Shown here one piece after another: positions 5,996 through 47,409 of a stretch of 64,000 nt of DNA. A model generated the notes under the pieces. That model saw nothing but the letters and a program-made list of their open reading frames with translations. It had not been told where the DNA came from and did not search any database. Made by a program: the position numbers and the translations under genes. Within the stretch, counting starts at the first letter, position 1, and each line of letters starts with the position of its first letter. Source of the stretch: Escherichia phage JLBYU43; the sequence record NC_105512.1; one strand, written 5' to 3'.

Positions 5996-6478
5996 CTAAC
6001 CAAAGTTAGTAAATTCTTTATGTAAGGATTCTCTTAATATCTTAGAGGCCTCGAAAGCCTCTTCCGCAGTTTTAAACCCTCTTTTACTGTAATTTTTTCC
6101 TTCATGTCTTACTTGGTATCTCCAGGAAGAGCCTTCCCAACTTACTCCTTTGTACCCAGAAGTATTATTGCATTGTTGGTTTCTATTCGCATTGTTTTGC
6201 GATCTAGAGGCGTCCCTTAGATTATTTTTCCTATTATTTCTAGGATTAGTATCCTTATGATCTACTTCTTCAGGCCTATATCCATAGTACATAATAAACA
6301 ATAAGACATGCAGTTGATAGGTGTCGCCCTGAAATCCCACATCTGGGTGTGATTTCTTATTATTGGCACAACACTCTTTCAAACCTTTCTTTGTTTTCCT
6401 ATATAGTACCCCATTATCAGGATCAGCTACAAAATATTTTTCAAGTATTTCTTTAGTAGGGTATTCTTTCCTTTTCAT
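5996..6478 (-). CDS. HNH homing endonuclease with AP2-like DNA-binding domain
   Basis: HNH motifs (HHKD.N..NN..NLR) followed by SGYKGVSWEGSSWRYQVRHEGKNYSKRGFKTAEEA; paralog of CDS 46900-47409. Confidence 0.75.
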   Translation of the reverse strand: MKRKEYPTKEILEKYFVADPDNGVLYRKTKKGLKECCANNKKSHPDVGFQGDTYQLHVLLFIMYYGYRPEEVDHKDTNPRNNRKNNLRDASRSQNNANRNQQCNNTSGYKGVSWEGSSWRYQVRHEGKNYSKRGFKTAEEAFEASKILRESLHKEFTNFG

Positions 6479-6521
6479 GAAACTATTATATCAACTTTTT
6501 CGATGTTAAGCAAATCAATTT

Positions 6522-6965
6522 TTAATTAAATTCGCCAGCAACCTGAGCAGCAATGCCACCGTCGTAACGACCAGGAAACTCTTCCTTAATCGCTTTCATC
6601 AGCATACCTTTTGTAATCCCAGGATTCAACTTAACTAATTCTGCAAAGTATTTGCGAATCTCAGAATCAGATAACTGAGGCGGCAGATACTGCTGTAACC
6701 ATTTGTTCAGTATATATTCATACTGAGCAGACTGCAAGCTATAATTATCAAGGTCTTGACCGTGAAGTTTAGCTTTCGTCTGATTAATGCTTTTCAGTTG
6801 AGCTTTTAGATAAGATACAAACTGTTCAGAAGTAATGAAGTCTTTATCAACACGCTGAAGATCTCCGATTATGGTCTGGTAGCTTTTAGCTACTTCTTTA
6901 TCAGAACCATTAAACTTGGATTCCTGCAAAGCCCTACGCAAAACATCTAGAATATTCTCTTCCAT
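6522..6965 (-). CDS. hypothetical protein (147 aa)
   Basis: ORF-track ORF, protein-like composition; no confident family assignment. Confidence 0.55.
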   Translation of the reverse strand: MEENILDVLRRALQESKFNGSDKEVAKSYQTIIGDLQRVDKDFITSEQFVSYLKAQLKSINQTKAKLHGQDLDNYSLQSAQYEYILNKWLQQYLPPQLSDSEIRKYFAELVKLNPGITKGMLMKAIKEEFPGRYDGGIAAQVAGEFN

Positions 6966-7135
6966 TATTTAATTCCCAGTGCTTGGTTAAAAGATTGTTC
7001 TGTCATAACTGCTGAGACTTTGGCGAAATCAAACTTCTTAGGATTTGTAGTAATTTCAGCAACGTTAGTAGTTTTAACTGTTTTCGTAGTACGAATACCG
7101 TGAGTGTTAACACCAATAATTACTAAGGTTTTCAT
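6965..7135 (-). CDS. hypothetical small protein (56 aa)
   Basis: Start moved to the internal ATG (MKTLVIIG...) preceded by GAGAGGAAAG RBS and the promoter at 7169-7197. Confidence 0.45.
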   Translation of the reverse strand: MKTLVIIGVNTHGIRTTKTVKTTNVAEITTNPKKFDFAKVSAVMTEQSFNQALGIK

Positions 7136-7168
7136 TGTTCGCTTTCCTCTCATCAATTTATACAGTTA

Positions 7169-7197
7169 TTATACAGAATTTTAAGGCTTAAAGCAAT
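7169..7197 (-). promoter_or_regulatory. sigma70-type promoter (TTGCTT-17-TATAAT)
   Basis: Reverse complement: TTGCTT, TAAGCCTTAAAATTCTG, TATAAT, then conserved leader ATAAATTGATGAGAGG. Confidence 0.6.
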
Positions 7198-7204
7198 TGA
7201 ATTT

Positions 7205-7651
7205 TTAAATTTTCTTAGTCACAGGCTTATAGAACGTGTGGCCTTGAATTTTAGTTGTTTTCTTGAACGTTTTCGTCCAGTACGGCTTTTCTTTACCACT
7301 ATGGAAGTATAACGCTCCATATGTTGGATCATGTGGTAAATCAACGTAGTATATCACTCTAGCTACATTCTTAGCAGTTTGCCAAGCCGCATCGGTTTTA
7401 TCAACTTTTGGTCTCTTAGATACCCAAGAGAACTGGTTAGACTGATATACTACTTTACAGTAAGAATCCGGGAATGTGCCAGAGTTAACACGGTTTTTAG
7501 TGACCTGTGCAACTGCAACCATTCCCTTCGTGCCCTCACCTCGGCTCTCAAAATAGACATTTTTTGCAATGCAATCAATCTGTTTAGCGTCGTAGGTAGC
7601 ATGACTCTGAAAGCTAAAGGTTAGGGCAGCCATTAGTAAGACTGCCTTCAT
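7205..7651 (-). CDS. secreted cell-wall hydrolase, SleB/CwlJ-like
   Basis: N-terminal signal peptide (MKAVLLMAALTFSFQSHA) then motifs typical of Hydrolase_2 family (NVYFESRGEG, AVAQVTKNRV). Confidence 0.55.
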   Translation of the reverse strand: MKAVLLMAALTFSFQSHATYDAKQIDCIAKNVYFESRGEGTKGMVAVAQVTKNRVNSGTFPDSYCKVVYQSNQFSWVSKRPKVDKTDAAWQTAKNVARVIYYVDLPHDPTYGALYFHSGKEKPYWTKTFKKTTKIQGHTFYKPVTKKI

Positions 7652-7663
7652 TCTTTTTACTCC

Positions 7664-8485
7664 TTAAAATAGATCATATTCTAATCTATTGGGATTTTCT
7701 CGGTATCCATAAGACGTAAGGGTTCCTCTCATGTACTCTGCGTCAACAGGATTAGATGTTACTAGAACCACTTTTAGTGGTCTTTGACCTAAAAATAGTA
7801 TATGATCTAATAAATCTTTTCCTTGTACCTCTGGATCCCCTAAATCTGAGTCCATAAATAAATAGGATCCTGTGAAACTAAACATATCTGATAGTTCCAG
7901 CGCACCTATAACTGTACGACAAATAATGGACATTTCAGGTAGATCTCTAACATCGTCTATTAGAATATTGGTCTGCTTCCCAATTTCTGCATTACATAAA
8001 CCATTTACTAGTTTTTCTCTTTCCCCTTTAGCTTGTTCGAAAGTGGTGAAGCCAGGAGATACGAAAAACTTTCCACCTAATGTAATGCTATACGCAAAAC
8101 CCTCGGAGAGGAGTTCTACACCTACGGTTTTATCAGTATTAATCCTATTTAACTTAAAATTTGTCTCTCTTAGATTAAGAATTCTGTTATCCCACGGTAT
8201 GGTATTTATATGGTCGATCATATCAGGTGGCTCTTCACCATAATGGAGCAACCACGCTATTCGGTGCCCATAAATAATTGTGGGTTTATTACCTAAGAGC
8301 AAGCTAACTCTGATGTACCCATTAGAGTTCTTACTACATATTTCTCTCCCAGCATATAGGGTGTGCCAAGTTTTATTCTTGTATTTATTAGGCTTATAAA
8401 ATAATTTACCTGTATAAGGATTATATTCTATAATTTCTCGAATATAATCTATATATGATAGTATTTGTTTTTGTAATTTACCCAT
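7664..8485 (-). CDS. HNH endonuclease with C-terminal domain of unknown function
   Basis: N-terminal HNH_3-like region (NGYIRVSL..HRIAWLLHYG..DHIN..DNR..NLR); the C-terminal 150 aa are unassigned. Confidence 0.65.
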   Translation of the reverse strand: MGKLQKQILSYIDYIREIIEYNPYTGKLFYKPNKYKNKTWHTLYAGREICSKNSNGYIRVSLLLGNKPTIIYGHRIAWLLHYGEEPPDMIDHINTIPWDNRILNLRETNFKLNRINTDKTVGVELLSEGFAYSITLGGKFFVSPGFTTFEQAKGEREKLVNGLCNAEIGKQTNILIDDVRDLPEMSIICRTVIGALELSDMFSFTGSYLFMDSDLGDPEVQGKDLLDHILFLGQRPLKVVLVTSNPVDAEYMRGTLTSYGYRENPNRLEYDLF

Positions 8486-8515
8486 AATAGCCTCGTCTCA
8501 TCAATTTAAAAATAT

Positions 8516-8544
8516 ATTATATAGAAAACTAAACTAATTAGCAA
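8516..8544 (-). promoter_or_regulatory. sigma70-type promoter (TTGCTA-17-TATAAT)
   Basis: Reverse complement: TTGCTA, 17 nt, TATAAT, leader AAATTGATGAGACGAGG, then ATG of CDS 7664-8485. Confidence 0.6.
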
Positions 8545-8936
8545 ATACATTTTTAAATTGAGAGACTAGTAAACCGATAAACAGCCTAGAGGCGCCACAG
8601 GCCATATCTTATGAGCCATGTACCTTTGATCTAGGGTTTGAATCATCAACGAATACTTTGCATCTTTTAGCTTTAGAAGGTTAGAAGTTTGAGTGCTTTT
8701 AACTTTTCAGCTTTCATACTTGAGCGTTGATCTTTGAAGTTGTGTTGGTACTACCAACGACGTCTTGTTTTATTTTGACAGATGCAACATCTGCCGAAAA
8801 ATAAATTAAGATAATCTCCAATAGATTATACTGTATCTAGTATGGTCAGCGGTCTTATTTAACCTCGTATTTCAACCGCTGCTGCGAGGTAAGATGCTTG
8901 GGCTTTCGTCTACCGATTTACTAGTCTTTTAAATTA

Positions 8937-9575
8937 TTACTCTACTTCGATAAAAGTAGAGGCGTTGGACTCAGACAGAACAAAGTCAACGTTGGTTGCA
9001 AAGTCCTGGTATTCTTCGTCGTGTTGCTTGATCAGCTTTTCCAGCTCCAGCGGATCGATCAGGAACGGAGTGTTCTTGAGTTCCAGCAGGTTAAGCTGCA
9101 TCTTAACTTCATCCTCGGAAGTCTTCTTGTCGCGGGTAGCCATGGTATCCTGCAAACGCTCATACTTAGCATCAAACTGAGCTTTCTGAGTGTTAAACTT
9201 AACAGTAGCAGCATGGAACTGCTTACGCATGTTAGCCAGCAACTGAGCTTTGAGTTCCATAGAACGCTTAGCTTCGATTGCTTCCGCAACAGTCATAGAG
9301 CGCGAACCGATCTCTACAACAGTTTCAGCATTGCTCTTGATCAGCGCAGCTTTCAGACGATCACGCTGGGACATCATATCCAGCAGAGACTGGAAATCAG
9401 TCTTAATACGGGTAGACAGATCGTCTACTTCGATTGCAGCGCCAACTACAACCTGGTTCTTGTCCTTACCTTCACCAACAGCGATCAAAAGCTGTTGTTC
9501 AGTAGCTTTACGGATTTTAGCTTCCAGAGACTTGATAGTTGCCAGAGCACGAGTTTTAGAGATACGAGTAGTCAT
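8937..9575 (-). CDS. hypothetical protein, host-like codon usage (212 aa)
   Basis: ORF-track ORF; codon choice (CTG, CGT, GGT) resembles highly expressed E. coli genes. Confidence 0.6.
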   Translation of the reverse strand: MTTRISKTRALATIKSLEAKIRKATEQQLLIAVGEGKDKNQVVVGAAIEVDDLSTRIKTDFQSLLDMMSQRDRLKAALIKSNAETVVEIGSRSMTVAEAIEAKRSMELKAQLLANMRKQFHAATVKFNTQKAQFDAKYERLQDTMATRDKKTSEDEVKMQLNLLELKNTPFLIDPLELEKLIKQHDEEYQDFATNVDFVLSESNASTFIEVE

Positions 9576-9628
9576 TATTTGCTTCCTTATATGAAGTTTG
9601 AGATTTGAATTTGTTTAAATTTGGTCTA

Positions 9629-9811
9629 TTACAGACCAATTGCCAGCAGAGTGCGCAGAACAGTATCGTTACTGTTATCAATTTTAGGATTAGCACGATT
9701 TAGCAGATCAAAGATTTTCTGGATACCTGATTGACGTTCAGCCATACGACGGATACCCAGATTACGAGTAGCTTTCTTACCATTTTTACGAACATTTTTA
9801 GATACTGGCAT
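9629..9811 (-). CDS. hypothetical small basic protein (60 aa)
   Basis: ORF-track ORF directly downstream of the promoter at 9852-9880 with AGGAAAACAAAT leader. Confidence 0.45.
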   Translation of the reverse strand: MPVSKNVRKNGKKATRNLGIRRMAERQSGIQKIFDLLNRANPKIDNSNDTVLRTLLAIGL

Positions 9812-9851
9812 ATTTGTTTTCCTTTTATTGTTTTCTCAAATTTATGAATAT

Positions 9852-9880
9852 ATTATACAGAATTTTGGAGCCGGAAGCAA
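9852..9880 (-). promoter_or_regulatory. sigma70-type promoter (TTGCTT-17-TATAAT)
   Basis: Reverse complement: TTGCTT, CCGGCTCCAAAATTCTG, TATAAT. Confidence 0.6.
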
Positions 9881-9881
9881 A

Positions 9882-10583
9882 TCAAATTTTCATTTTTTCG
9901 ATCATAGCTGCAACACAATAGCTCTCAACTAGGGCATCGAATGCTGGGTCGTGCTTAACCGGATAGATCCCATAACGAATGGTGTCCATCTTCTCCATTT
10001 TAGCTATTGCCCAGCTAATACCTTCGGTTTCTAGAGCTTTATAACTATAGCCAGTTTGCATCCAGAGATTACGAAGAGATCTAACATTACCCAAGTTCCA
10101 GAATTTCCACGGAACTATTTCTTCATTGGTTCCAGCATGGAAAGTGTTTGCAGAGTAGATAGTCATATCAAACTCTGGGCCATTGCCATAATACAAAGCA
10201 TTTTCGCCTAGAGCCAACTCCATAATATTTTGAGCCATAGAGAAGGCAGCATGGTTAGAGCCAAGTTTATTAGTGCAATGATGTTTACCATTTTGGAAGG
10301 CAACCAGTTTTGGATTAGGCTCATTCATAGCTTCCATAATGTGGATAGCAGACGGGCTATGTTTAGCCTGATCCATCCAGAATGCTAGAGTAGATGCTGT
10401 AACTTTGGCACCAGAATTAAGTTGATCTTGTACATCTAAAGTAACAAATACTAGATCAGGGTCTTTATCAATTCCATGCATAGCCACAAAAGCGAATGAA
10501 GGCATTGCGATATGGGTAGTACCACAATCTCCTGGAGTTCCTAGAGATTCAATATCTAGCATACCAAATGGTTTTACTTTCAT
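9882..10583 (-). CDS. DEDD-family 3'-5' exonuclease (DnaQ/RNase T-like)
   Basis: Exo I-like motif MLDIESLG near the N-terminus and Exo III-like H..AFDA near the C-terminus. Confidence 0.55.
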   Translation of the reverse strand: MKVKPFGMLDIESLGTPGDCGTTHIAMPSFAFVAMHGIDKDPDLVFVTLDVQDQLNSGAKVTASTLAFWMDQAKHSPSAIHIMEAMNEPNPKLVAFQNGKHHCTNKLGSNHAAFSMAQNIMELALGENALYYGNGPEFDMTIYSANTFHAGTNEEIVPWKFWNLGNVRSLRNLWMQTGYSYKALETEGISWAIAKMEKMDTIRYGIYPVKHDPAFDALVESYCVAAMIEKMKI

Positions 10584-10611
10584 AACTTATCCTTTATTGT
10601 GTAGAAAACTA

Positions 10612-10833
10612 TTAAAGAGCTGTCTCTTTAATAGACTCCCACTTCTTGGGGTCTTTAAAACCAGGAAGCATATCCTCACTGACATCCCAGTTCTCTTCCA
10701 TATAGAGATCATCTAAGTCTAGCTCATCCACTGCTAAATCCATTATCTCATGACTAGAAAGTCGTGTATAATCTCTAGCGGACTTATGAGTGCTAGCACG
10801 GTTAAAATCATTCTTTGCTACAAAATTACGCAT
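10612..10833 (-). CDS. hypothetical protein (73 aa)
   Basis: ORF-track ORF; acidic C-terminal half. Confidence 0.4.
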   Translation of the reverse strand: MRNFVAKNDFNRASTHKSARDYTRLSSHEIMDLAVDELDLDDLYMEENWDVSEDMLPGFKDPKKWESIKETAL

Positions 10834-10874
10834 AGTTTCTCCGATTAAGAGGGGCTTTCGCCCCTATTTATCTA

Positions 10875-11390
10875 TTACTTCGCTTTACGCTTGCGAGCTG
10901 GTTTAGCAGATTTACGAGCAGAATCACCCGTGAACTTAATGCCTACACCGTAACACAGAGCACGAACGTTATCTTTACTATACTCTACGCCAAAGATATT
11001 TGGCTTAACAGAACCAAACTGCCCGCGAGTATCACGCAATACATCTGCCGTTGGTTTACGCTTCTGGTTAACTGCCTTCTCATAGTCTTTCATAGACATA
11101 CCATTACGAGAGAACAATTCAGCCCCAGCGTTGAAGCTCAGGGAAACTGGGACAGATTTGTGGCCGTAATTTTCTACATACATAACCATTTTGTAGGATT
11201 TACGGGTGGCATTTTTAGCTTTAGGCTTCTGACGAATCGGAGCCGGATTATTCAGTGCTTGCGCAGCCTGAGCATCGGTGGGATGCTTACGCAGGTGGCG
11301 TTCCAGACGAGCCTTGCGATTAGCCTCAGTCTTCGGGAAAGTTTTAACTGCCGGAGCTGCTTGAGTTTTTGCGTTTTTCTGCTTAGCCAT
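10875..11390 (-). CDS. hypothetical lysine/arginine-rich protein (171 aa)
   Basis: ORF-track ORF with strongly basic termini; nucleic-acid binding is a guess. Confidence 0.55.
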   Translation of the reverse strand: MAKQKNAKTQAAPAVKTFPKTEANRKARLERHLRKHPTDAQAAQALNNPAPIRQKPKAKNATRKSYKMVMYVENYGHKSVPVSLSFNAGAELFSRNGMSMKDYEKAVNQKRKPTADVLRDTRGQFGSVKPNIFGVEYSKDNVRALCYGVGIKFTGDSARKSAKPARKRKAK

Positions 11391-11428
11391 TATTTGTTTT
11401 CCTTTTTGTTTATCAATTTATGAAGTAT

Positions 11429-11457
11429 ATTATACGAGAATTTGAAGCGTTTAGCAA
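11429..11457 (-). promoter_or_regulatory. sigma70-type promoter (TTGCTA-17-TATAAT)
   Basis: Reverse complement: TTGCTA, AACGCTTCAAATTCTCG, TATAAT. Confidence 0.6.
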
Positions 11458-11473
11458 ATGAATTTTTTAAAAA

Positions 11474-11752
11474 TTATCTACCAACCATCTTAGCTTGTTC
11501 GGCATCTGAGACATATTGATACGCCCCTTTATTATACGCCGGAGCAGTACACATTTTCTTACGCTCAATCTCTTCCTGAGCTTTTCTTTCACGTTCAGCT
11601 AATTCTTCATCCAGATAAACTAAACGTTGCTCTGGAGGAGGTGGAAGACGTGTTTCTGGCTCACCAATATTAGCCTTTCTTATTTGACGAGGTGATTGTG
11701 CACGTTTTCTCAATGGTTTAAATCCTAATGAATTTGAGTTATAAATTCGCAT
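11474..11752 (-). CDS. hypothetical protein (92 aa)
   Basis: ORF-track ORF with GAGGAGGG RBS before the ATG, downstream of the promoter at 11780-11808. Confidence 0.45.
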   Translation of the reverse strand: MRIYNSNSLGFKPLRKRAQSPRQIRKANIGEPETRLPPPPEQRLVYLDEELAERERKAQEEIERKKMCTAPAYNKGAYQYVSDAEQAKMVGR

Positions 11753-11779
11753 AAAGCCCTCCTCACTTTCAATACGAAT

Positions 11780-11808
11780 ATTATACTAAATTAGAGGGCT
11801 TTAAGCAA
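11780..11808 (-). promoter_or_regulatory. sigma70-type promoter (TTGCTT-17-TATAAT)
   Basis: Reverse complement: TTGCTT, AAAGCCCTCTAATTTAG, TATAAT. Confidence 0.6.
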
Positions 11809-11828
11809 GAAAATTTTTAATTTATTTA

Positions 11829-12305: not shown

Positions 12306-12850
12306 TTATTAAGTTCCTCTATTGGTGGGTAATAGTTGGTATAGAAATCTTCTATAACTGCTTCGCTACCATGAAGTGTTTTTCTTAGTTCATTAGCCTT
12401 TATGACCGCACTTTCTAGGTCTAAGTAGTCAAAAACACACCCGTAAATATTTTTACCATTATTATCAATCACCTGTACTTGCCATTTCTGTAGTTGTTTG
12501 TTCCAGTGTACGCCTAGATATCCAGATTTACTCGATGCGGTACAATTTCTGTTATTAGACTGGCTTGTAGCTTCTCTTAGATTTATCCACCTATTATCTG
12601 ACCTAATTCTATTTTTGTGGTCTATTAAATCAGGTATTGATCCTGTCATGTATAGAAAGGCTAACCTATGAGCTAAATAATCTATTTTATCTATCTTAAT
12701 AGTTATATAGCCATCTTTTCTTAGGTATCCAGCGGGCGAACCTGCTTTTCCTCCCCTACCACGACTTATCTTATTAGTAAATATACCGGTATCTGGGTCA
12801 TAGATTAGTATTTCTTTTAATCTTTCTTGGCTAGGTAACTTTTTACTCAT
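12302..12850 (-). CDS. HNH homing endonuclease
   Basis: HNH motifs (HRLAFLYM..IDHKNRIRSDNRWINLR); C-terminal half closely resembles CDS 36521-37054; start and stop overlap both neighbours. Confidence 0.7.
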   Translation of the reverse strand: MSKKLPSQERLKEILIYDPDTGIFTNKISRGRGGKAGSPAGYLRKDGYITIKIDKIDYLAHRLAFLYMTGSIPDLIDHKNRIRSDNRWINLREATSQSNNRNCTASSKSGYLGVHWNKQLQKWQVQVIDNNGKNIYGCVFDYLDLESAVIKANELRKTLHGSEAVIEDFYTNYYPPIEELNK

Positions 12851-13226
12851 CTAACCATCCTATGTCTATACTAAGTAATGCTTTTATTCCTGTAATACCT
12901 GTACCATAAGTATTATATCGAATAGCACTTCTGCTCTTTACTTCAAGTATATTTTCATACTCTGTATTTTCTAGAATTTCTGTAGATATACCTAAATATC
13001 CTAATTGATCTTCCTCGTCCCAACCCATATCTTCTAGAAGATTTAGACGTAACTCTACCTTCTCATCTCCATTGCCTACAGAGTGGTAGTCTTCTAAAGT
13101 CCTGAATTTAGAAGTGATAGAGTCTAGTATTAATAATACCTGTTCCTTAGTAATAGTTTCTTTATCACTCTGCAAGTAATTGGAGTAATTCAGAAGGGCT
13201 TGTTCTAATTCAATTTCTTTACTCAT
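12843..13226 (-). CDS. hypothetical acidic protein (127 aa)
   Basis: ORF-track ORF downstream of the promoter at 13256-13285. Confidence 0.5.
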   Translation of the reverse strand: MSKEIELEQALLNYSNYLQSDKETITKEQVLLILDSITSKFRTLEDYHSVGNGDEKVELRLNLLEDMGWDEEDQLGYLGISTEILENTEYENILEVKSRSAIRYNTYGTGITGIKALLSIDIGWLDE

Positions 13227-13255
13227 TTTATTATCCTTTTGTACTTATTGAGTAT

Positions 13256-13285
13256 ATTATATTTGAAATTGTACTTAATAAGCAA
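13256..13285 (-). promoter_or_regulatory. sigma70-type promoter (TTGCTT-17-TATAAT)
   Basis: Reverse complement: TTGCTT, ATTAAGTACAATTTCAA, TATAAT. Confidence 0.55.
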
Positions 13286-13303
13286 ATACAATTTCAAATA
13301 TAA

Positions 13304-13319: not shown

Positions 13320-13325
13320 TTTAAG

Positions 13326-19637: not shown

Positions 19638-19666
19638 TTGACATAGTGGATAATGTTTAGTATAAT
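19638..19666 (+). promoter_or_regulatory. consensus sigma70 promoter (TTGACA-17-TATAAT)
   Basis: TTGACA at 19638-19643, 17-nt spacer, TATAAT at 19661-19666; first plus-strand promoter, divergent from the phoH promoter. Confidence 0.65.
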
Positions 19667-19693
19667 AGGTGTAAAAATTCTGTGGAGAAGGGG

Positions 19694-20558
19694 AATGCCG
19701 AAAAAATTAACTCAAGAAGAAGTAGATAAATGCCTAGCCGAACGTGGTTTTACTATGGTGGATAAGCCTTACCAAAATTCTAGGTATAGGCATACGTATC
19801 AGTGTGAATATGGTCATCAATGGACATCTAAATTTGATGCTATTAGGAATGGAAAGACCAATTGTCCTACTTGTTCTATTAATAGCCGTAAACTAGATAT
19901 CGATAAAATTAATACTGTATTACAGGGTAGGGGTATTACATTGTTGGAGGGCTATAAAAATAGTGCCGATATAAATACTAAATTTAGGTGTGTTTGTGGT
20001 CATGAGTGGGCTACTACACTTAATAGTATAATTAATAGAGGTAGTGGCTGCCCCTCTTGTGCTATTAATAAACAAAAACTTAGTATTAATACTATAAACG
20101 ATCGTCTTACTGCTAGGAATATTAGAATAGTAGGTGAATATAGTAATGCGAATATTAAGACCACCTTTCTCTGTGGTGCAGGGCATCAGTGGGAAGCTAC
20201 TCCAGGATCCGTGTTAGGAGGAAATGGTTGTCCTTACTGTAAGTATAGGGATTTAGAAAATACTAAGGTATATATTATGCATAGCCCTTCACATGGTGTT
20301 AAAATAGGAAGGTCTAACAATCCAGAGCGCAGACTTTTACATATTAAATCTAGTAGTCACCTTACTGATCTGGAAGTAATTAAAGTATTTGAAATTGGAG
20401 AATATAGTGATGCTGTTCAAATCGAAAAATTAGCTCATAATTACTTTAAAGAACAGAATTGCCAATACAAAGATTTTGATGGTGCTACGGAATTCTTCAA
20501 TATTGAGCCAGAAGTAGCTATAAAATTTATCGAGGAAATAATCAATGACAGAAAATGA
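19694..20558 (+). CDS. T5orf172-domain (GIY-YIG-like) protein with three N-terminal zinc-ribbon repeats
   Basis: Three tandem repeats each ending C..GH.W...(G)CP.C(S/A/K), then KIGRSNNPERRL...GATEFF. Start set at the ATG at 19694 after GGAGAAGGGG RBS. Confidence 0.7.
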
Positions 20559-29170: not shown

Positions 29171-29387
29171 AAAATGGGAAACAAGGAAGTTTCCAGTAAA
29201 AGAGCGTAAAGTTCCTGTTTACGACACTTCGGAAAAGCTATGTAGGGTGGTACCACACAGATTAGCTGGCATCCCTAACATATCCGAGTGGTTACTTAAA
29301 CAACGGAAAACTAACGTGTCTCTTCGCATCGGCTTTGAGTTAGATAAAGTCTATGCTGAACTTGCTTCTTTGCTCAAGGAACAATAA
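29154..29387 (+). CDS. hypothetical protein (77 aa)
   Basis: ORF-track ORF overlapping the end of the 929-aa gene; stop overlaps the next start. Confidence 0.4.
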   Translation: MTVKNKKWETRKFPVKERKVPVYDTSEKLCRVVPHRLAGIPNISEWLLKQRKTNVSLRIGFELDKVYAELASLLKEQ

Positions 29388-29959
29388 TGTTTATAAGAAT
29401 TCCCGAATTTCCTGACTATGCAGTGAATGAAAATGGAGATGTATACTCTTTTCTCTCCAACAAATTTCTTGCTCCAGGTCAAAATACTGCGGGGTACTTA
29501 CAAGTTAACTTAATGAAAGATGGCTCCCCTATAAATGTGAGAGTGCATAGGCTAGTGGCTTATTGTTTTGGTCTACTTCCTGAGTTAGAATCAGAGTTGG
29601 TAGTAGACCATATAAATGATAATAAGTTAGATCCTAGATTAGTTAACCTACAGGTATTAACCCACAAAGCTAATGCAATAAAATTCCATAATAAAAACTG
29701 GAGAGAACATCCAGATTTCTTAGCAGAGATTAAGAAATTAGAAAGTATGGGTATAACTAAAGCAGCTGCATCTTATAGGTGTAGGGCTATGTTTAAATAT
29801 AATGTGGTTATTCCTTCCGGTGATACTCTAACCTTAGAGTTAATAGAATCTACATATCAGAAAACCAATTCTTGGAGAAAAACCGCGAGAGTACTTGGAT
29901 TTAAAAGCGCTCCTGCCATTCTTTATAGATATAACAAGCTGAAAGCAGCTTCTTTATAA
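29387..29959 (+). CDS. HNH homing endonuclease
   Basis: HNH_3-like motifs (GYLQVNL..HRLVAYCF...VDHINDNKLDPRLVNLQVLTHKAN). Confidence 0.7.
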   Translation: MFIRIPEFPDYAVNENGDVYSFLSNKFLAPGQNTAGYLQVNLMKDGSPINVRVHRLVAYCFGLLPELESELVVDHINDNKLDPRLVNLQVLTHKANAIKFHNKNWREHPDFLAEIKKLESMGITKAAASYRCRAMFKYNVVIPSGDTLTLELIESTYQKTNSWRKTARVLGFKSAPAILYRYNKLKAASL

Positions 29960-35051: not shown

Positions 35052-36524
35052 ATGACCTTGTTTAACGTGCAAGCTGTAGTGTTGAAGATGCTTCTAGCTT
35101 CTGAACAGAAGCAAATAGCATTGGAAACATTCTCAAAACTGCATAAAGATCATTTTAATGACGCTTTCTCCTCAATTTACCAAGCCGTCCAGAATTATTA
35201 TAAAAAATATAACACAATGCCGTCCATTGACGCACTGATGCTTGAGGCTAATAGGAACGCCCGTCTTTCTCAAGCTCTAGTCGTCTTAGCTAACACTCAA
35301 ATTCCAGAAGTGAGCATGGAACAGGCACTTGAAGTCCTAGAAGCAGAATATACACAGGATTTATTCCTGAAGCTTCTAGAAACAGACGTGCTTCAAGATT
35401 TAACAATGCTGGATCAGGGAGAAATTCTCAACCGAGTTGCCTCCCTTCACTTAAAATTAGAAGAGAAAGTAACGAATACTGGAAAAGTATTCAACGCAGA
35501 TAACATGCGTATTTTCCAGAGAGAAGAAGATACCAAACTGAACTTAATCGCTCTTGGTATTTGTAATGAGTTCGACGCTCAAATTGGTTTAGCTCGCACA
35601 GAAACGTTACTGCTTGGTGGTTGGCGTGGTACTGGTAAATCCATTATCTGTTCAAACATACAGGTTCAGCAATATTTGAATGGAGATATTGCTCCATACT
35701 TCTCAATTGAGATGAAAGAACATGAAGTATTTAGACGTAATCTAGCCATGTTAGCTGGTGTATCAGCATTAGCAATGCGTAATAACACTCTTGAAGGTGC
35801 TGCTCTGTTGAGATTAGCCAGAACTAGGGCTAGGATGTTTAATGGTGGTGAAGAGCTTTTCGATAACTTCGTTAAGCAATACACTATGGCTAAAATGAGT
35901 GACTTCTATGATATGGAAAGTAAACTCCTTGAAGGCTATGAGCTTCACACTCCTATGATCATCGTTTACGATCCTGAACTGTCTATTACGACTGTTGACG
36001 TAGAATTAAATAAACTAGTTGCTAAATATGGTGATAAGGTTACTGTAGCTCTTCTAGACTATATTAACCAAACAAGACTTCCAGATTCAAAGACCATTGA
36101 CATGTATGACTGGAAAGAACAGATGGTCGTTAGTTCATCTTTCAAATCTATCTGCCAGAAACATAACGTGGCTGGTGTAGCTCCTTACCAGATCGATCAA
36201 GATGGTAGAACACGTATGTCAAAGGGGATTCTTGATTCCGCAGACATGGCTGCTAATCTTAATGCTGCAAAAGCTGATAATGGTCAAGGTGCTATTATGT
36301 TTGACTTCGTTAAGACTCGTTCTTCTGATAGCGTGAAGTTTATGCCTAAAATGAACTGGGAAACTCTGCGAATGGATAACACTACCAACCTAGCAATGGA
36401 AGATATATCTCAAATGGAAGCTGAGTTCGTTATCCCTATTGAGAAGGATAAGCCGGCTCAACCTAAACGTGCTAAGAAAGACAAAACTGAAAATTCAACA
36501 GGTGAACAGGCCAGCGATATATGA
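35052..36524 (+). CDS. DnaB-like replicative helicase
   Basis: RecA-like core with Walker A GGWRGTGKS; start set at the ATG after AAAGGAGA RBS (MTLFNVQ...). The ORF-track start lies inside the terminator. Confidence 0.7.
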   Translation: MTLFNVQAVVLKMLLASEQKQIALETFSKLHKDHFNDAFSSIYQAVQNYYKKYNTMPSIDALMLEANRNARLSQALVVLANTQIPEVSMEQALEVLEAEYTQDLFLKLLETDVLQDLTMLDQGEILNRVASLHLKLEEKVTNTGKVFNADNMRIFQREEDTKLNLIALGICNEFDAQIGLARTETLLLGGWRGTGKSIICSNIQVQQYLNGDIAPYFSIEMKEHEVFRRNLAMLAGVSALAMRNNTLEGAALLRLARTRARMFNGGEELFDNFVKQYTMAKMSDFYDMESKLLEGYELHTPMIIVYDPELSITTVDVELNKLVAKYGDKVTVALLDYINQTRLPDSKTIDMYDWKEQMVVSSSFKSICQKHNVAGVAPYQIDQDGRTRMSKGILDSADMAANLNAAKADNGQGAIMFDFVKTRSSDSVKFMPKMNWETLRMDNTTNLAMEDISQMEAEFVIPIEKDKPAQPKRAKKDKTENSTGEQASDI

Positions 36525-37054
36525 TAACACAGGAAAGGCTAAAAGAGTTATTTGATTACTCCCCAGAAACTGGGGAGTTTACTAGAAAAGTATCTAGAGG
36601 CAATCAGAAAGCTGGGAGTATAGTAAATAGAAAAGACTCTAATGGCTATATAATTATTGGCATAGATGGCAAGGATTACAAAGCTCATCGTATGGCTTTT
36701 CTATTTATGGAGAATACACTGCCTGAAAAAGTAGACCATGTAAACAGAATACCATTCGATAACAGATGGTGTAATCTAAGAGATGCCACAGCCCAGGAAA
36801 ATAGTAGAAATAAAACAGCATGTAGTAAATCTGGATACTTAGGAGTTGCTTGGGATAAGAAAAATCAAAAATGGGAAGTTAGAGTCAGGGATTATTTAGG
36901 AAATAAAAAATATTTCGGAAGATTTAACTATCTGGATTTACAATCAGCTGTTGAGATAGCTAATAAGGCCAGACTACAGTTACACGGAGAACGTGCTGTT
37001 ATAGAGATTTTTGATATATATAATTATCCTGCACTAGAGGAGCTAAACTCATGA
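36521..37054 (+). CDS. HNH homing endonuclease
   Basis: HNH motifs (HRMAFLFM..VDHVNRIPFDNRWCNLR); paralog of CDS 12302-12850; wedged between helicase and primase with overlapping start and stop. Confidence 0.75.
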   Translation: MITQERLKELFDYSPETGEFTRKVSRGNQKAGSIVNRKDSNGYIIIGIDGKDYKAHRMAFLFMENTLPEKVDHVNRIPFDNRWCNLRDATAQENSRNKTACSKSGYLGVAWDKKNQKWEVRVRDYLGNKKYFGRFNYLDLQSAVEIANKARLQLHGERAVIEIFDIYNYPALEELNS

Positions 37055-44106: not shown

Positions 44107-45084
44107 ATGAGAATATTATTTAGTGCTGATCATCATATCAAACTAGGACAAGATAAAGTTCCAAAGGAATGGCAGAAGCGTCGCTTTCTGATGCTAGGAG
44201 AACGGTTAAATGATATATTCCATAATCATAACTGTGATCTTCATATTGCTGGTGGTGATATACTTGATGTTGCCGACCCGTCGTCAGAAGAAATAGAACT
44301 GCTTGAACAGTTCATGTCAAGACTTGACCATCCAGGCAAAATCTTTACTGGAAATCATGAAATGTTAACTAAAACCATTTCATGTCTATATCATTATGCA
44401 GGAGTTATTAATAAAGTAACAAGTGGTAAGTGGGAAGTAATTACCAAACCATATCGTTCCCCTGAATTTGATATTGTTCCGTACGATGAAATCCATAAAT
44501 CTAAGTGGAAACCATCTGAATCAAAACTATGTTTCACGCATGTTCGTGGTGAAATCCCTCCACATGTAAAACCAGAAATTGATCTAACTAAGTACAACTG
44601 TTATGATACTGTAATTGCTGGAGATTTACATTCTTATACTAATAGCCAGACTATCGGGTCTACTAGACTCCTCTACCCAGGGTCTCCATTAACTACATCG
44701 TTCCATAGAGAACGCACAAAAGGTACAAATGGTTGCTTTATCGTTGATACCGACACATTAAAAGTAGAATGGATTGAACTCGGTGATTTACCACAACTGA
44801 TTCGTAAAACAATTGGAGCTGGTGAAGAGATGGAACCTAGTGATTATGATCGTGTAGTCTATGAAGTTACTGGTGACGTTGTTCAATTAAAGTCTATTAA
44901 AGACTCTGATTTATTAGATAAGAAGATTAACCATCGAGTTACTAAAGATGCTAAGTTAAATCTTGTTGATCTTGATATGTTAGGTGAACTTGAACTTTAC
45001 TTCCGTGAAGTCGAGAAGCTATCTCAAGGCGACATTGATAGAATCTTGGCTAGAGCTGCGAAATATGTCAAAGATTACAATTAA
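44107..45084 (+). CDS. Mre11/SbcD-like nuclease
   Basis: Calcineurin-like phosphoesterase motifs (ILFSADHH, GGD, GNHE, GDLH). Confidence 0.75.
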   Translation: MRILFSADHHIKLGQDKVPKEWQKRRFLMLGERLNDIFHNHNCDLHIAGGDILDVADPSSEEIELLEQFMSRLDHPGKIFTGNHEMLTKTISCLYHYAGVINKVTSGKWEVITKPYRSPEFDIVPYDEIHKSKWKPSESKLCFTHVRGEIPPHVKPEIDLTKYNCYDTVIAGDLHSYTNSQTIGSTRLLYPGSPLTTSFHRERTKGTNGCFIVDTDTLKVEWIELGDLPQLIRKTIGAGEEMEPSDYDRVVYEVTGDVVQLKSIKDSDLLDKKINHRVTKDAKLNLVDLDMLGELELYFREVEKLSQGDIDRILARAAKYVKDYN

Positions 45085-46903
45085 GACACTAAAATTTAGT
45101 AACGTTATGTCTTACGGTAAGGACATCGTAATTCATTTCGATAAGAATCCAGTTACTCAACTAATTGGCGGCAATGGACTAGGGAAATCTACAATTGCCA
45201 CTGTTATTGAAGAACTCTTTTATAATAAGAACTCACGCGGTATTAAGAAGGATGCTCTGTTCTCCTGGTCTTCTCCGAAAAAAGAATACGATATGCACGC
45301 TTACTTCTCGAAAGATGAAGATGAATACGAACTGCATAAAGTAGTTAAGTCAACTGCCAAAGTAACTCTTATTAAGAACGGAGAAGATATTAGTGGACAC
45401 ACGGCAACTCAAACGTACAAGATGGTTGAAGAGATTATGGGAGGTGACTTCCAAACATTCACCAAACTAATTTATCAATCAGTGGGTTCCAATCTAGACT
45501 TTCTAAAAGCAACAGATGCAACACGTAAGGCTTTTCTTGTTAACTTGTTCAATCAAGAACAGTACAAAGAAATGTCAGAAACTATTAAGGCTGACCGTAA
45601 AGAAATAGCAAATACCTTAAATAATTTGCAGGGCCAAATGGCTGTAATTACGAAAATCCTTAATGGGAAGAATAATCTGGGAACTTTGCAGGAACCGGTA
45701 GAAGTACCAGAGTTTGATGAAGAGCCATTAGCACAAGAACTTACTGAATCGAAAATTAAGGCGGCATTAGCCAAGTCTCAAGAGGCTAATATTACTAAAT
45801 TGCGTAATTTGGACAAAGCTGTACAAGTTGCCGAACAATCTTTCGAGCCTTTCAAAAATTTGCCTGCGCCCATTGACCAAAATGAAGAGATCTCAAGTGT
45901 TACGCGTGACCTAACGATTGTGACCTCACGTGCGGGCGAAGTCAAGAAACGTTATCAGAAGTTCAAGCAAGAAGCTTCAAATACTGAATGTCCTACTTGT
46001 GGTACTCATCTGGATACAACTGCTGCTCAAAAAGCAATGGATATGGCTAGAACAGAATATGATCCTCTGTTCAAAGAGAAGCAATCTCTTGAAACCAAGC
46101 TAGAACAACTGAAGAAAGAACAACTTGAGTACGTTGCATATACTAGAGCAAAGGATGCTTTGGATAAAGCAGTGGTAGCTAGAGACGAGTTCAAAAATTC
46201 AATGAGTGATGCTTCTTTTGAAGAACTCAATGTGCAAATCCTACAGGTGCAAATCCGACAATTAGAACAGGAAATCGCTGATGGCCGTTCTAAGGTTGCA
46301 ATTGCCAAAGAGCATAATGCAAATGTTGAATTAGCCAATGCAAAATATAAAGCGAAACTAGAACAGATTGAGAAAGCTGAGGCAGAAATGTCTGAGATTA
46401 CTTCCAAACTGGATGGAGTATCAGAAGCTGTTGCTGATCTCGATATTCTGATCGCCGCATTGAAAAATCTGGTAGGGTATAAACTAGAACATAGTGTGAA
46501 AGTATTTGAAGAGCTTATTAATAAATACCTTTCTATTATGACTGGTGGTAAATTCGCACTTGGATTTGAACTTGATGAAACAAAATTACAAGTAGTAATC
46601 TTCAATGATGGAAACCGCACCAGTATGGAGAACTGCTCTACAGGTCAGCAGAGTAGAATTAACCTAGCAACTCTGTTAGCTATTCGAATGCTGTTAACAT
46701 CTATTAGTAAAGTTAATATTAATCTTCTGTTCCTTGACGAAGTTATTAGCTTTATTGATACGAAAGGACTTGATACTCTCGTTGAATTATTAAATGAAGA
46801 AGATAGTCTGAATTCTATCATTGTTTCTCATGGGCACTCTCACCCGCTGGCCCATAAGATTACAGTTAAAAAAGATGCAGAAGGATTCTCCTATTTAGAA
46901 TGA
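45065..46903 (+). CDS. Rad50/SbcC-like ATPase
   Basis: Walker A GGNGLGKST, long central coiled coil with CxxC zinc hook (CPTCGT), C-terminal signature and Walker B (LLFLDEV). Start set at MSKITIKTLKF inside the 3' end of the nuclease gene. Confidence 0.75.
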   Translation: MSKITIKTLKFSNVMSYGKDIVIHFDKNPVTQLIGGNGLGKSTIATVIEELFYNKNSRGIKKDALFSWSSPKKEYDMHAYFSKDEDEYELHKVVKSTAKVTLIKNGEDISGHTATQTYKMVEEIMGGDFQTFTKLIYQSVGSNLDFLKATDATRKAFLVNLFNQEQYKEMSETIKADRKEIANTLNNLQGQMAVITKILNGKNNLGTLQEPVEVPEFDEEPLAQELTESKIKAALAKSQEANITKLRNLDKAVQVAEQSFEPFKNLPAPIDQNEEISSVTRDLTIVTSRAGEVKKRYQKFKQEASNTECPTCGTHLDTTAAQKAMDMARTEYDPLFKEKQSLETKLEQLKKEQLEYVAYTRAKDALDKAVVARDEFKNSMSDASFEELNVQILQVQIRQLEQEIADGRSKVAIAKEHNANVELANAKYKAKLEQIEKAEAEMSEITSKLDGVSEAVADLDILIAALKNLVGYKLEHSVKVFEELINKYLSIMTGGKFALGFELDETKLQVVIFNDGNRTSMENCSTGQQSRINLATLLAIRMLLTSISKVNINLLFLDEVISFIDTKGLDTLVELLNEEDSLNSIIVSHGHSHPLAHKITVKKDAEGFSYLE

Positions 46904-47409
46904 AAAAGCAAGATATAACTGTAGAGTTCCTACAGGATAGGTATGAAATTAGAGACGGTACTCTATTTCATAGAAAATCAGTAGGATCAGCTAAGAAAGG
47001 ATCTAGAGTCGGATCCCTGTCTAAAGATGGGTATTATAGAACAAGTATTAAAGGGACAGAATACAGAGTATACGATTTAATTTACTTTATGGCCAACGGT
47101 ACCTGGGCAGACTCAGTGGATCATAAAGATAGAAATAGGCAAAATGATATTCCAGATAACTTACGTAATGCTTCTAAGTCTCAGCAAGCTCAAAATAGAT
47201 CTTCTAGGTCTAAGGCTACTAAGTATAAAGGTTTAGATTTCCCTAACGGTAGAGATGGTAAACCCAGGGCTAGAATTAAGAACCCTAATACTGGTATTAG
47301 AGAAAACTTAGGATCTTTTAATACTCTAGAGGAGGCCGCCAGAGCCTATGATATTAAAGCAAAAGAATACTTCGGAGATTTCGCAGTATTAAATTTCCCA
47401 GAGGAATAA
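46900..47409 (+). CDS. HNH homing endonuclease with AP2-like domain
   Basis: HNH (VDHKDRNRQNDIPDNLR) then YKGLDFPNGRDGKPRARIKNP...EEAARAY; paralog of CDS 5996-6478. Confidence 0.75.
   Translation: MKKQDITVEFLQDRYEIRDGTLFHRKSVGSAKKGSRVGSLSKDGYYRTSIKGTEYRVYDLIYFMANGTWADSVDHKDRNRQNDIPDNLRNASKSQQAQNRSSRSKATKYKGLDFPNGRDGKPRARIKNPNTGIRENLGSFNTLEEAARAYDIKAKEYFGDFAVLNFPEE

What the first reader, a model, noticed from the sequence alone, without database searches (positions are those of the whole stretch)
5996..47409. Heavy load of freestanding homing-endonuclease genes, including two paralog pairs
At least seven HNH or T5orf172 genes are interspersed among essential genes (5996-6478, 7664-8485, 12302-12850, 29387-29959, 36521-37054, 46900-47409, plus T5orf172 genes at 1-388 and 19694-20558). 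CDS 12302-12850 and 36521-37054 share a near-identical C-terminal half, and CDS 5996-6478 and 46900-47409 share the HNH plus AP2 architecture. Several overlap both neighbours (ATGA-type), as expected for recent insertions between conserved genes. These are likely sites of mosaicism and marker exclusion.
Basis: partly seen in the sequence, partly recalled or inferred. Interest (0 to 1): 0.45.

Follow-up and report, generated by a model that had tools for sequence, protein, structure and literature searches.

The report
Homing endonuclease genes in T5-like phage
This stretch of a T5-like phage genome carries eight selfish "homing endonuclease" genes wedged between replication and nucleotide-metabolism genes. 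This is real but well documented for this phage group; the one oddity is a copy fused in frame to a small host gene.

Summary
The window is a T5-like phage (Demerecviridae, Markadamsvirinae), about 90-94% identical to H8, SP3, Shivani and similar phages. All eight ORFs exist. Six pass Pfam HNH_3 and two pass T5orf172.

Each is a minority allele among roughly 400-480 related phage records: T1 20%, H1 13%, H2 6%, H3 about 8-15%, T2 6%, H4 2%, H5 16%, H6 4%. Empty sites are base-precise. At H5, the helicase/primase ATGA overlap is simply duplicated around the insert. Orthologues in relatives are intact, with pN/pS of 0.08-0.46. Occupancy is scattered across a DNA-polymerase clustering. So the homing-endonuclease reading holds.

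- H3 and H5 are evenly about 55% identical, not near-identical in the C-terminal half.
- H1 and H6 are only 28% identical and are not a special pair.
- Five ORFs belong to one family (phrog_99, HNH plus an AP2-like domain). H4 belongs to another (phrog_59).
- The load of 6 HNH genes is high against a median of 1, but phages H8 (9) and SHSML-45 (7) exceed it.

The phenomenon is already published for T5-like phages.

The most interesting detail is H2. Its endonuclease is inserted in frame just after the start codon of the T5.084-type cREC gene, and GenBank records label this an "intein". The fusion is old and conserved.

The parts
1..388 (-). T1: T5orf172/MUG113 (GIY-YIG superfamily) endonuclease gene in the tRNA cluster. 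Its C-terminus is cut by the window edge.
   Evidence: Pfam T5orf172 4e-14 and MUG113 6e-17. tRNA genes lie at 642-5393. T1 plus flank is present in 81 of 403 matching phage records.
5996..6478 (-). H1: HNH_3 plus AP2-like endonuclease gene. It lies between the T5.081 homologue (6522-6965) and the tRNA-Arg/rnaX-like region.
   Evidence: HNH_3 1.2e-11. phrog_99 1.5e-47. Present in 1/25 IMG/VR genomes and 56/442 phage records. Orthologue pN/pS 0.08. Identity breakpoint at the 96th percentile.
7664..8485 (-). H2: single 273-aa ORF. It combines an HNH_3 plus AP2-like module (aa 1-172, nt 7970-8485) with a full cREC_REC domain (aa 173-273, nt 7664-7969), fused in frame. It uses the promoter-proximal leader and ATG of the T5.084-type gene.
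   Evidence: HNH_3 5.5e-11 and cREC_REC 1.6e-12. 25/27 relatives have only a roughly 105-aa cREC ORF here, 51% identical to the C-terminal part. Full fusion is in 26/448 records. The same fusion occurs at 75% aa identity in the distant contig L103.
12302..12850 (-). H3: HNH_3 plus AP2-like endonuclease gene between RNase H (11829-12305) and ORF 12843-13226. It overlaps both.
   Evidence: HNH_3 8e-14. phrog_99 1e-62. Present in 5/27 IMG/VR genomes, plus 2 diverged alleles at the same site. 34 records hold the full cassette. pN/pS 0.09-0.17.
12843..13226 (-). 127-aa ORF of unknown function that travels with H3. In HildyBeyeler an unrelated 93-aa ORF occupies this slot.
   Evidence: Coverage by relatives is 0.28 over 12301-13200. 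No similarity to the HildyBeyeler ORF. phrog_26840, unknown function.
19639..19667 (+). Perfect sigma-70 consensus promoter (TTGACA-N17-TATAAT) upstream of T2 and nrdD.
   Evidence: Read directly from the sequence. T5 annotates an nrdD promoter at the equivalent place.
19695..20558 (+). T2: endonuclease gene with three treble-clef zinc-finger (DUF4379/CapR) repeats plus a C-terminal T5orf172 domain. It is inserted between the promoter and nrdD. Its 3' end overlaps the nrdD start by 14 nt.
   Evidence: Pfam DUF4379 2.5e-14, T5orf172 6e-12, CapR 3.8e-10. phrog_681 1.8e-65. Present in 7/25 IMG/VR genomes and 25/440 records. A deletion relic is present in HildyBeyeler. Breakpoint at the 99th percentile.
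29387..29959 (+). H4: I-HmuI-like HNH_3 endonuclease gene (weak NUMOD4 N-terminus, different family from the other five). It lies between the T5.110 homologue and the D2 helicase.
   Evidence: HNH_3 5.6e-9. phrog_59 4e-29. Present in 0/30 IMG/VR genomes and 11/480 records, about 6 distinct phages.
36521..37054 (+). H5: orthologue of T5 hegJ (putative H-N-H endonuclease P-TflX), between the D6 helicase and the primase. ATGA overlaps at both ends.
   Evidence: HNH_3 6e-8. Same site as T5.120 hegJ. Present in 10/30 genomes at 73-90% nt identity and in 70/443 records. The empty allele is a single ATGA. pN/pS 0.20-0.46.
46900..47409 (+). H6: HNH_3 plus AP2-like endonuclease gene between D13 (SbcC-like) and D14 (RusA-like).
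   Evidence: HNH_3 3.6e-7. phrog_99 2.9e-43. Present in 1/33 genomes, with a different insert in one other, and in 19/442 records. Gln replaces the I-HmuI Asn96 equivalent, and Tyr replaces the first conserved His.

Best explanation
The eight ORFs are freestanding homing endonuclease genes of a T5-like phage: six of the HNH_3/I-HmuI type and two of the T5orf172 type.

**Inferred mechanism.** In a mixed infection, each enzyme binds a long site in or beside the neighbouring conserved gene of a phage that lacks the insert. Binding would be through its AP2-like or zinc-finger domain. The enzyme nicks or cuts that site. Recombinational repair from the endonuclease-carrying genome then copies the gene, and sometimes its flanks, into the empty site.

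**What is shown here.**
- Domain content and conserved catalytic residues.
- Minority, patchy occupancy of base-precise sites between conserved genes.
- Intact, selectively constrained orthologues.
- One deletion relic.
- Identity discontinuities at some sites.

**What is inferred.** Cleavage, target identity and actual homing.

**H2 as a special case.** The endonuclease module is inserted in frame right after the start codon of the small cREC gene (T5.084 type). Endonuclease and host protein are therefore made as one polypeptide from the host gene's own leader. This fused allele replaces the standalone allele as a unit.
For: **Domains.**
- Pfam HNH_3 and T5orf172 score above the gathering cut-offs.
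- PHROG 'HNH endonuclease' and 'endonuclease' families match.
- A profile of the six ORFs matches I-HmuI 1U3E (1.7e-12) and AP2/ERF structures.
- Asp-His and Asn-Leu are invariant.

**Presence and absence.**
- IMG/VR genomes: H1 1/25, H2 2/27, H3 5/27, T2 7/25, H4 0/30, H5 10/30, H6 1/33. Empty-site gaps are 3-8 bp at H4-H6.
- Phage records: 56/442, 26/448, 34/228, 25/440, 11/480, 70/443, 19/442 and 81/403.
- Junctions are base-precise. The empty H5 allele is 'ATGA' and the occupied allele has ATGA at each end.

**Pattern across relatives.**
- Low-coverage segments of the window are almost exclusively the endonuclease genes.
- Occupancy is scattered over a DNA-polymerase clustering. The nearest neighbour, at 2.3% distance, has none of the seven sites occupied.
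- Orthologues have no stop codons and pN/pS of 0.08-0.46.
- A T2 relic is present in HildyBeyeler.
- Identity breakpoints sit at T2 (99th percentile), H1 (96th) and H6 (86th).

**Literature.**
- The BF23 paper states that homing endonuclease genes are the main source of differences among T5-like genomes (PMC10644984).
- Barth et al. 2023 report T5orf172 genes with CapR-type zinc fingers, enriched in T5-like phages and near nrd genes, and HNH-AP2 endonucleases (PMC10448857).
Against: - No cleavage or homing data exist for any of these eight proteins.
- H2, H4 and H5 show no flank identity breakpoint.
- H6 has Gln at the metal-binding Asn position and Tyr at the first conserved His, so it may be weakened.
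- Purifying selection is also compatible with a function useful to the phage.
- The polymerase clustering is a single-gene UPGMA in a mosaic group, so gains and losses cannot be counted rigorously.
- The phage collection holds GenBank/RefSeq duplicates, so the frequencies are per record, not per independent phage.
Confidence: 0.85

Rival explanations
1. Some or all of the genes are domesticated nucleases kept because they help the phage. Possible roles are excluding co-infecting relatives, producing the strand interruptions typical of T5 DNA, or amplifying or rearranging loci. On this view they are not purely selfish homing elements.
For: All orthologues are intact, with pN/pS of 0.08-0.46. 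The H2 fusion is conserved at 75% aa identity with no indels, while synonymous sites are saturated. H5/hegJ is a long-standing resident with diverged alleles. A 2026 paper reports a phage homing endonuclease (SegB) aiding immune evasion (PMC13096335; title and abstract only).
Against: Each gene is absent from 80-98% of close relatives that are viable phages. A T2 relic shows that loss is tolerated. Purifying selection is also expected for an actively homing element.
Confidence: 0.15
2. The genes are ancestral to the group and their patchy distribution reflects repeated loss, not mobility.
For: A T2 deletion relic is present in HildyBeyeler and in IMG/VR genome 2974666860. H5 alleles are old.
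Against: Empty sites at H4, H5 and H6 are seamless. They show single ATGA or short spacers with no relic. This would need many independent exact deletions. Copies 94-99% identical sit in otherwise 85-92% identical backgrounds, for example H1 in H8 at 99% against flanks of 85-92%. Occupancy is scattered over the polymerase clustering.
Confidence: 0.08
3. H2 is an intein inside a host protein, as annotated in the HildyBeyeler and SelmaRatti GenBank records.
For: GenBank annotates an 'intein-containing hypothetical protein' with the intein at residues 3-171. The insert is in frame relative to the standalone gene.
Against: There is no Hint or intein Pfam hit. The insert starts with Lys rather than Cys/Ser, and ends with Gly-Lys rather than His-Asn. 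The next residue is Gln, not a nucleophile. The 170 residues are fully accounted for by the HNH_3 and AP2-like modules. The N-extein would be only two residues long.
Confidence: 0.02

Closest known systems
Phage T5 heg genes (hegA-hegJ), including the putative H-N-H endonuclease P-TflX (hegJ, T5.120). The F-Tfl nickases of Akulenko et al. 2004 are cited in PMC10644984.
   Same: H5 sits at exactly the hegJ site between the D6 helicase and the primase, and is 85% nt / 84% aa identical to it. It has the same HNH_3 family and the same style of insertion between early genes.
   Different: The other seven sites are empty in T5. T5 instead has hegH (nrdB/nrdA) and hegI (T5.108/T5.110), which this window lacks.
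I-HmuI (PDB 1U3E), the HNH nicking homing endonuclease of Bacillus phage SPO1
   Same: The profile of the six ORFs matches its N-terminal and HNH region at E=1.7e-12. The Asp-His, Asn-Leu-Arg and (in five of six) distal Asn residues are aligned.
   Different: I-HmuI is encoded inside a group I intron and has a helix-turn-helix C-terminus (from memory). Here the genes are freestanding, and five carry an AP2-like C-terminus.
HNH-AP2 homing endonucleases (the 'IPA-HNH' family of Barth, Dunham and Seed 2023, PMC10448857)
   Same: N-terminal HNH plus C-terminal AP2-like DNA-binding domain. Variable presence. Location near essential genes.
   Different: Barth et al. report IPA-HNH enrichment in other lineages (Barbaviruses, Flaumdraviruses) and T5orf172 enrichment in T5-like phages. 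Membership of that exact family was not tested here.
T5orf172 homing endonucleases with repeated CapR/DUF723-type zinc fingers (Barth et al. 2023)
   Same: T2 has three zinc-finger repeats plus a C-terminal T5orf172 domain and lies next to a ribonucleotide reductase gene. This matches the described architecture and neighbourhood.
   Different: None of substance. T1 is truncated by the window, so its DNA-binding part is not visible.
Freestanding seg/mob endonuclease genes of T4-like phages (from memory)
   Same: Intronless homing between conserved genes, with co-conversion of flanks and exclusion of markers from relatives.
   Different: Different nuclease families predominate (GIY-YIG Seg, HNH Mob). 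There is no experimental evidence for the present genes.

Membership tests
HNH_3 (PF13392, I-HmuI-like) nucleases | Score above the Pfam gathering threshold (24.8 bits) | tested here: met
   The six ORFs score 30.1-51.4 bits.
HNH_3 (PF13392, I-HmuI-like) nucleases | Catalytic Asp-His, Asn of Asn-Leu-Arg, and distal metal-binding Asn (I-HmuI D74/H75/N96; numbering from memory) | tested here: met
   Asp-His and Asn-Leu are invariant. The distal Asn is present in H1-H5. H6 has Gln there, so H6 is only partly compliant.
T5orf172 (PF10544, GIY-YIG superfamily) | Score above the Pfam gathering threshold (20 bits) | tested here: met
   T2 scores 46.4 bits. T1 scores 53.3 bits.
AP2 DNA-binding domain (PF00847) | Score above the Pfam gathering threshold (33.3 bits) | tested here: not met
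   Best scores are 13.9-17.3 bits for H3, H5 and H6. There is no AP2 hit for H1 or H2.
AP2 DNA-binding domain (PF00847) | Profile-level similarity to solved AP2/ERF domains; three strands plus a helix | tested here: met
   Profile of the six ORFs against WRI1 7WQ5 gives 1.5e-8, and against ERF096 5WX9 gives 2e-4. The H2 model shows strands at 119-146 plus a helix at 149-171, at low confidence.
Freestanding homing endonuclease genes | Variable presence at one locus among close relatives, with precise boundaries | tested here: met
Freestanding homing endonuclease genes | Position between or beside conserved essential genes, not within an intron or intein | tested here: met
   Neighbour annotation comes from HildyBeyeler, SP01 and T5. 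H2 is an in-frame fusion, which is an exception in form.
Freestanding homing endonuclease genes | Co-conversion or altered flanks linked to the gene | tested here: inconclusive
   Breakpoint scores are high at T2, H1 and H6 and ordinary at H2, H4 and H5. The nrdD effect at T2 reflects whole-gene allele classes.
Freestanding homing endonuclease genes | Site-specific cleavage of the empty allele and super-Mendelian inheritance in crosses | not testable with these tools
   Needs biochemistry and phage crosses.
Inteins (for H2) | Hint domain, N-terminal Cys/Ser, C-terminal His-Asn followed by Cys/Ser/Thr | tested here: not met
   There is no Hint hit. The junction residues are Lys...Gly-Lys/Gln.

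The most novel reading that the evidence does not exclude
H2 may be a long-lived 'driver-plus-payload' chimera rather than a chance read-through.

**Layout.** An HNH/AP2-like homing endonuclease is translationally fused to the N-terminus of a complete cREC enzyme. cREC is a predicted cyclic-phosphate/ADP-ribose-processing enzyme (PMC9503650), and the fused copy keeps its Asp motifs. The fusion uses the host gene's own leader and ATG.

**Behaviour.** This fused allele spreads horizontally among Demerecviridae as a unit, replacing the standalone cREC allele, which is only 51% identical.

**Supporting evidence.**
- A distant T5-like contig carries the same 273-aa fusion at 75% identity, while its flanking proteins are only 40-68% identical.
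- Both halves show equal constraint.
- No freestanding relative of the endonuclease half lies between 60% and 90% identity in 50,697 phage records.

**Implication.** This would be an intron- and intein-free way for a homing endonuclease to live inside a coding gene.
Probability: 0.35. Interest if true: 0.45.

Novelty: already known. Interest (0 to 1): 0.2.

Why it matters
**For annotation and phylogeny of T5-like phages.** These eight loci should be masked, because they account for nearly all the gene-content difference from relatives in this region. Each locus has a different nearest relative:
- T1: SE19, 99.2%
- H1: MSP1, 98.4%
- H2: KKP_3831, 99.4%
- H3: Kenya-K18, 98.3%
- T2: phage 2-3, 99.1%
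- H4: RN29, 95.2%
- H5: polluks, 94.8%
- H6: SP3, 94.4%

**For biology.** The set offers eight defined occupied/empty allele pairs with base-precise junctions, ready for cleavage and co-infection tests. T5-like phages have few characterised homing endonucleases.

**For the H2 fusion.** The GenBank 'intein' annotation should be corrected. H2 is also a candidate for studying how an endonuclease can reside in a coding gene without a splicing element.

None of this changes the general picture, which is already published.

Tried and rejected
1. **Intein reading of H2.** This follows the GenBank annotation seen. I rejected it on junction residues and the absence of a Hint domain.

2. **A roughly 1-kb co-conversion tract in nrdD next to T2.** The binned identities suggested this. 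I rejected it as an artefact of which loci reach that far. T5's nrdD is 60-70% identical over the whole gene. HildyBeyeler lacks T2 yet has the window-type nrdD together with a T2 relic. The real pattern is two deep nrdD allele classes, with T2 found only in one.

3. **IMG/VR contig 2974569706 (111,607 bp) as HildyBeyeler.** I assumed this because the lengths are equal. It is wrong, since the two are only about 88% identical.

4. **Structure prediction of H2 with a 7-sequence alignment.** Mean pLDDT was 58.6, and the cREC half scored 30-50. That is too poor for a fold search, so none was run.

5. **Search for additional HNH_3 or T5orf172 genes in the window.** I used a custom HMM and phmmer and found none.

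6. **Wide protein search with H2.** It returned only two clusters, so no deep alignment could be built.

7. **'Two paralog pairs'.** Rejected, except that H3 and H5 are the closest pair at 55%.

Full report
**What the window is.** Megablast of 5000-25000 finds 572 phage records, all T5-like (Demerecviridae, Markadamsvirinae). The best are Escherichia phage H8, Salmonella phages EH1, SP3 and Shivani, and the BASEL phages, at about 90-94% identity. No record is near-identical over the whole stretch. Gene order matches T5: tRNA cluster, endolysin, RNase H, thyA, frd, nrdB, nrdA, phoH, nrdD, Sir2, the replication genes D2-D15, then tail genes.

**Check of the observation.** ORFs lie at the stated coordinates.
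- All six HNH candidates exceed the Pfam HNH_3 gathering score.
- Both T5orf172 candidates exceed theirs.
- The second T5orf172 gene (T2) also has three DUF4379/CapR-type zinc-finger repeats.
- In an alignment of the six HNH proteins, Asp-His and Asn-Leu are invariant.
- A profile of the six matches the solved nicking homing endonuclease I-HmuI (1U3E, E=1.7e-12) over the N-terminal and HNH part. It matches plant AP2/ERF domains (7WQ5 at 1.5e-8, 5WX9 at 2e-4) over the C-terminal part.
- Pfam's own AP2 model stays below threshold for every ORF.
- The residue aligned with the distal metal-binding Asn of I-HmuI is Asn in five proteins and Gln in 46900-47409. That ORF also has Tyr for the first conserved His.
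- A custom HMM and phmmer find no further member in the window.
- PHROG places H1, H2, H3, H5 and H6 in one family (phrog_99), H4 in another (phrog_59), and T2 in phrog_681.

**Paralogy claims.**
- H3 (12302-12850) and H5 (36521-37054) are 55% identical along their full length. The N half is 53% and the C half 57%. Nucleotide identity is 52-68% and the longest shared word is 14 nt. They are the closest pair, but there is no near-identical C-terminal half.
- H1 and H6 are 28-29% identical. H1 is marginally closer to H5 and H3, at 31%.
- The correct description is one family with five members plus one outlier, not two pairs.

**Coordinates and overlaps.**
ATG 19695 follows a GGAGAAGGGG Shine-Dalgarno sequence.
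- The upstream ATG at 19653 lies inside a perfect TTGACA-N17-TATAAT promoter at 19639-19667.
- Overlap with both neighbours holds for H3, H5 and H6.

**Presence and absence in relatives.** I fetched about 20-kb loci around three conserved anchor genes from IMG/VR, covering 35 T5-like genomes. I located each site by its flanks. I then queried 50,697 phage records with each gene plus about 500-bp flanks, and counted records covering at least 80% of the query against all records matching. The collection contains GenBank/RefSeq duplicates, so these are per record.

| Gene | IMG/VR occupancy | Phage records |
|---|---|---|
| T1 | not assessable | 81/403 |
| H1 | 1/25 | 56/442 |
| H2 (full form) | 2/27 | 26/448 |
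| H3 | 5/27, plus two diverged alleles at the same site | 34/228 |
| T2 | 7/25 | 25/440 |
| H4 | 0/30 | 11/480 |
| H5 | 10/30, at 73-90% nt | 70/443 |
| H6 | 1/33 | 19/442 |

- Empty sites at H4, H5 and H6 leave 3-8 bp. At H5 the empty allele is the single ATGA shared by the helicase stop and the primase start, and the occupied allele has ATGA at both ends.
- Window segments covered by fewer than half of the relatives are almost exactly the endonuclease genes. The exceptions are two small passenger ORFs.
- When genomes are ordered by DNA-polymerase similarity, occupancy is scattered. The nearest genome, at 2.3% distance, has none of the seven.
- Each locus has a different best-matching phage.

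**Selection and decay.**
- Every orthologue found in relatives is an intact ORF, with pN/pS of 0.08-0.46.
- HildyBeyeler lacks T2 but keeps its first roughly 16 nt and last roughly 180 nt, which is a deletion relic. Another genome keeps a 121-bp remnant.

**Mosaicism.** I used a simple breakpoint score: the mean absolute difference in identity between the two 400-bp flanks, across genomes. T2 falls at the 99th percentile of background positions, H1 at the 96th, and H6 at the 86th. H2, H4 and H5 fall at the 32nd-49th.
- At T2 the discontinuity reflects two deep nrdD allele classes. T5's nrdD is 60-70% identical over the whole gene. T2 was found only with the window's class.
- H3 travels with an unrelated 127-aa ORF that replaces a 93-aa ORF seen in HildyBeyeler.

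**Load.** I counted family members in the two 20-kb segments.

| Genome | HNH_3-family ORFs |
|---|---|
| This window | 6 |
| H8 | 9 |
| SHSML-45 | 7 |
| NR01 | 5 |
| T5 | 3 |
| Median of 27 genomes | 1 |

The load is high but within the known range. T5 itself names heg genes through hegJ; hegA, hegH, hegI and hegJ fall in the stretch I fetched.

**Explanation.** The anatomy fits freestanding homing endonuclease genes:
- an I-HmuI-type or GIY-YIG-type nuclease with a DNA-binding module;
- a seamless position between conserved genes;
- minority and patchy occupancy;
- constraint while present, and relics after loss.

Cleavage of the empty allele followed by repair from the occupied genome is inferred from what is established for I-HmuI and the T4 seg/mob genes (from memory). 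It is not shown here.

**Rival readings.**
- A domesticated function is not excluded for individual genes.
- Pure differential loss is unlikely, given the seamless empty sites and the near-identical copies in divergent backgrounds.

**H2 in detail.**
- In 25 of 27 relatives the site holds a roughly 105-aa ORF (T5.084) with a cREC_REC domain. In the window, residues 173-273 of H2 are 51% identical to it.
- The leader and ATG are those of T5.084. The endonuclease coding sequence lies between the ATG and about codon 4, so a single 273-aa protein is encoded, with no internal start at the junction.
- GenBank records of HildyBeyeler and SelmaRatti call this an intein. There is no Hint domain and the junction residues are wrong for an intein.
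- A distant T5-like metagenomic contig carries the same fusion at 75% aa identity without indels, although its flanking proteins are only 40-68% identical. pN/pS is about 0.19 in both halves, and synonymous sites are saturated.
- The endonuclease half has no relative between 60% and 90% identity in the phage collection.
- Flank identity does not differ between fused and standalone genomes, so the exchanged unit is the ORF itself.
- cREC domains are predicted, but not shown, to process cyclic phosphates or ADP-ribose derivatives in phage RNA repair (PMC9503650).
- The AlphaFold model was too poor in the cREC half to use.

**Comparison with what is known.** The phenomenon is published.
- The BF23 paper attributes most differences among T5-like genomes to homing endonuclease genes (PMC10644984).
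- The BASEL paper reports infestation and gene conversion, and presence/absence in Markadamsvirinae (PMC8594841).
- Barth et al. describe T5orf172 genes with repeated zinc fingers enriched in T5-like phages and near nrd genes, and HNH-AP2 endonucleases at boundaries of exchange (PMC10448857).
- Every one of the eight genes has a copy at 94% nt identity or better in a deposited phage.

**Verdict.** The novelty class is 'already known', and interest is low. The H2 fusion is a modest side finding.

Noticed in passing
window 7664-8485 (-): An HNH/AP2-like endonuclease is fused in frame after the start codon of the T5.084-type cREC gene. GenBank records of HildyBeyeler and SelmaRatti label it 'intein-containing', which the sequence does not support. 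The same fusion is conserved at 75% aa identity in a distant T5-like contig (L103).
   Followed up: yes
window 19639-19667 (+): A perfect sigma-70 consensus promoter (TTGACA-N17-TATAAT) lies just upstream of T2. T2 is inserted between this promoter and nrdD, so it probably rides on the nrdD promoter. The first in-frame ATG (19653) lies inside the promoter.
   Followed up: partly
window 20545-22371 (+), compared with L104 19962-21686 and L001 19812-21638: nrdD exists in two deep allele classes among T5-like phages. T5's copy is only 60-70% nt identical over the whole gene, while surrounding genes are about 95% identical. T2 was found only beside the window-type allele. HildyBeyeler has that allele plus a T2 deletion relic.
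   Followed up: partly
window 37968-38297 (+): A 109-aa ORF (phrog_35630, unknown function) lies between the primase and the DNA polymerase, where T5 has a 62-bp spacer. It is covered by only about 11% of relatives and has no nuclease domain. It may be another mobile or passenger ORF.
   Followed up: partly
window 12843-13226 (-): A 127-aa ORF (phrog_26840, unknown function) co-occurs with H3 and replaces an unrelated 93-aa ORF found at this position in HildyBeyeler.
   Followed up: partly
window 46900-47409 (+): H6 has Gln at the position of the metal-binding Asn of I-HmuI and Tyr at the first conserved His of the HNH_3 motif. Its orthologue in SP3 is nevertheless intact, with pN/pS of 0.13.
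   Followed up: partly
window 15840-15947 and 29170-29387; L104 15537-16061 and 28319-28837: The window lacks the T5 endonuclease genes hegH (between nrdB and nrdA) and hegI (between T5.108 and T5.110). H4 occupies a separate site one small gene downstream of the hegI site. Across the sampled relatives at least 15 distinct endonuclease sites exist in these two 20-kb segments.
   Followed up: partly
window 3654-4172 (-) and 4268-5284 (-): A Toprim-domain ORF (homologue of T5.076) and an SPFH/Band-7 membrane protein ORF (homologue of T5.080) lie inside the tRNA region. Neither is endonuclease-like.
   Followed up: no
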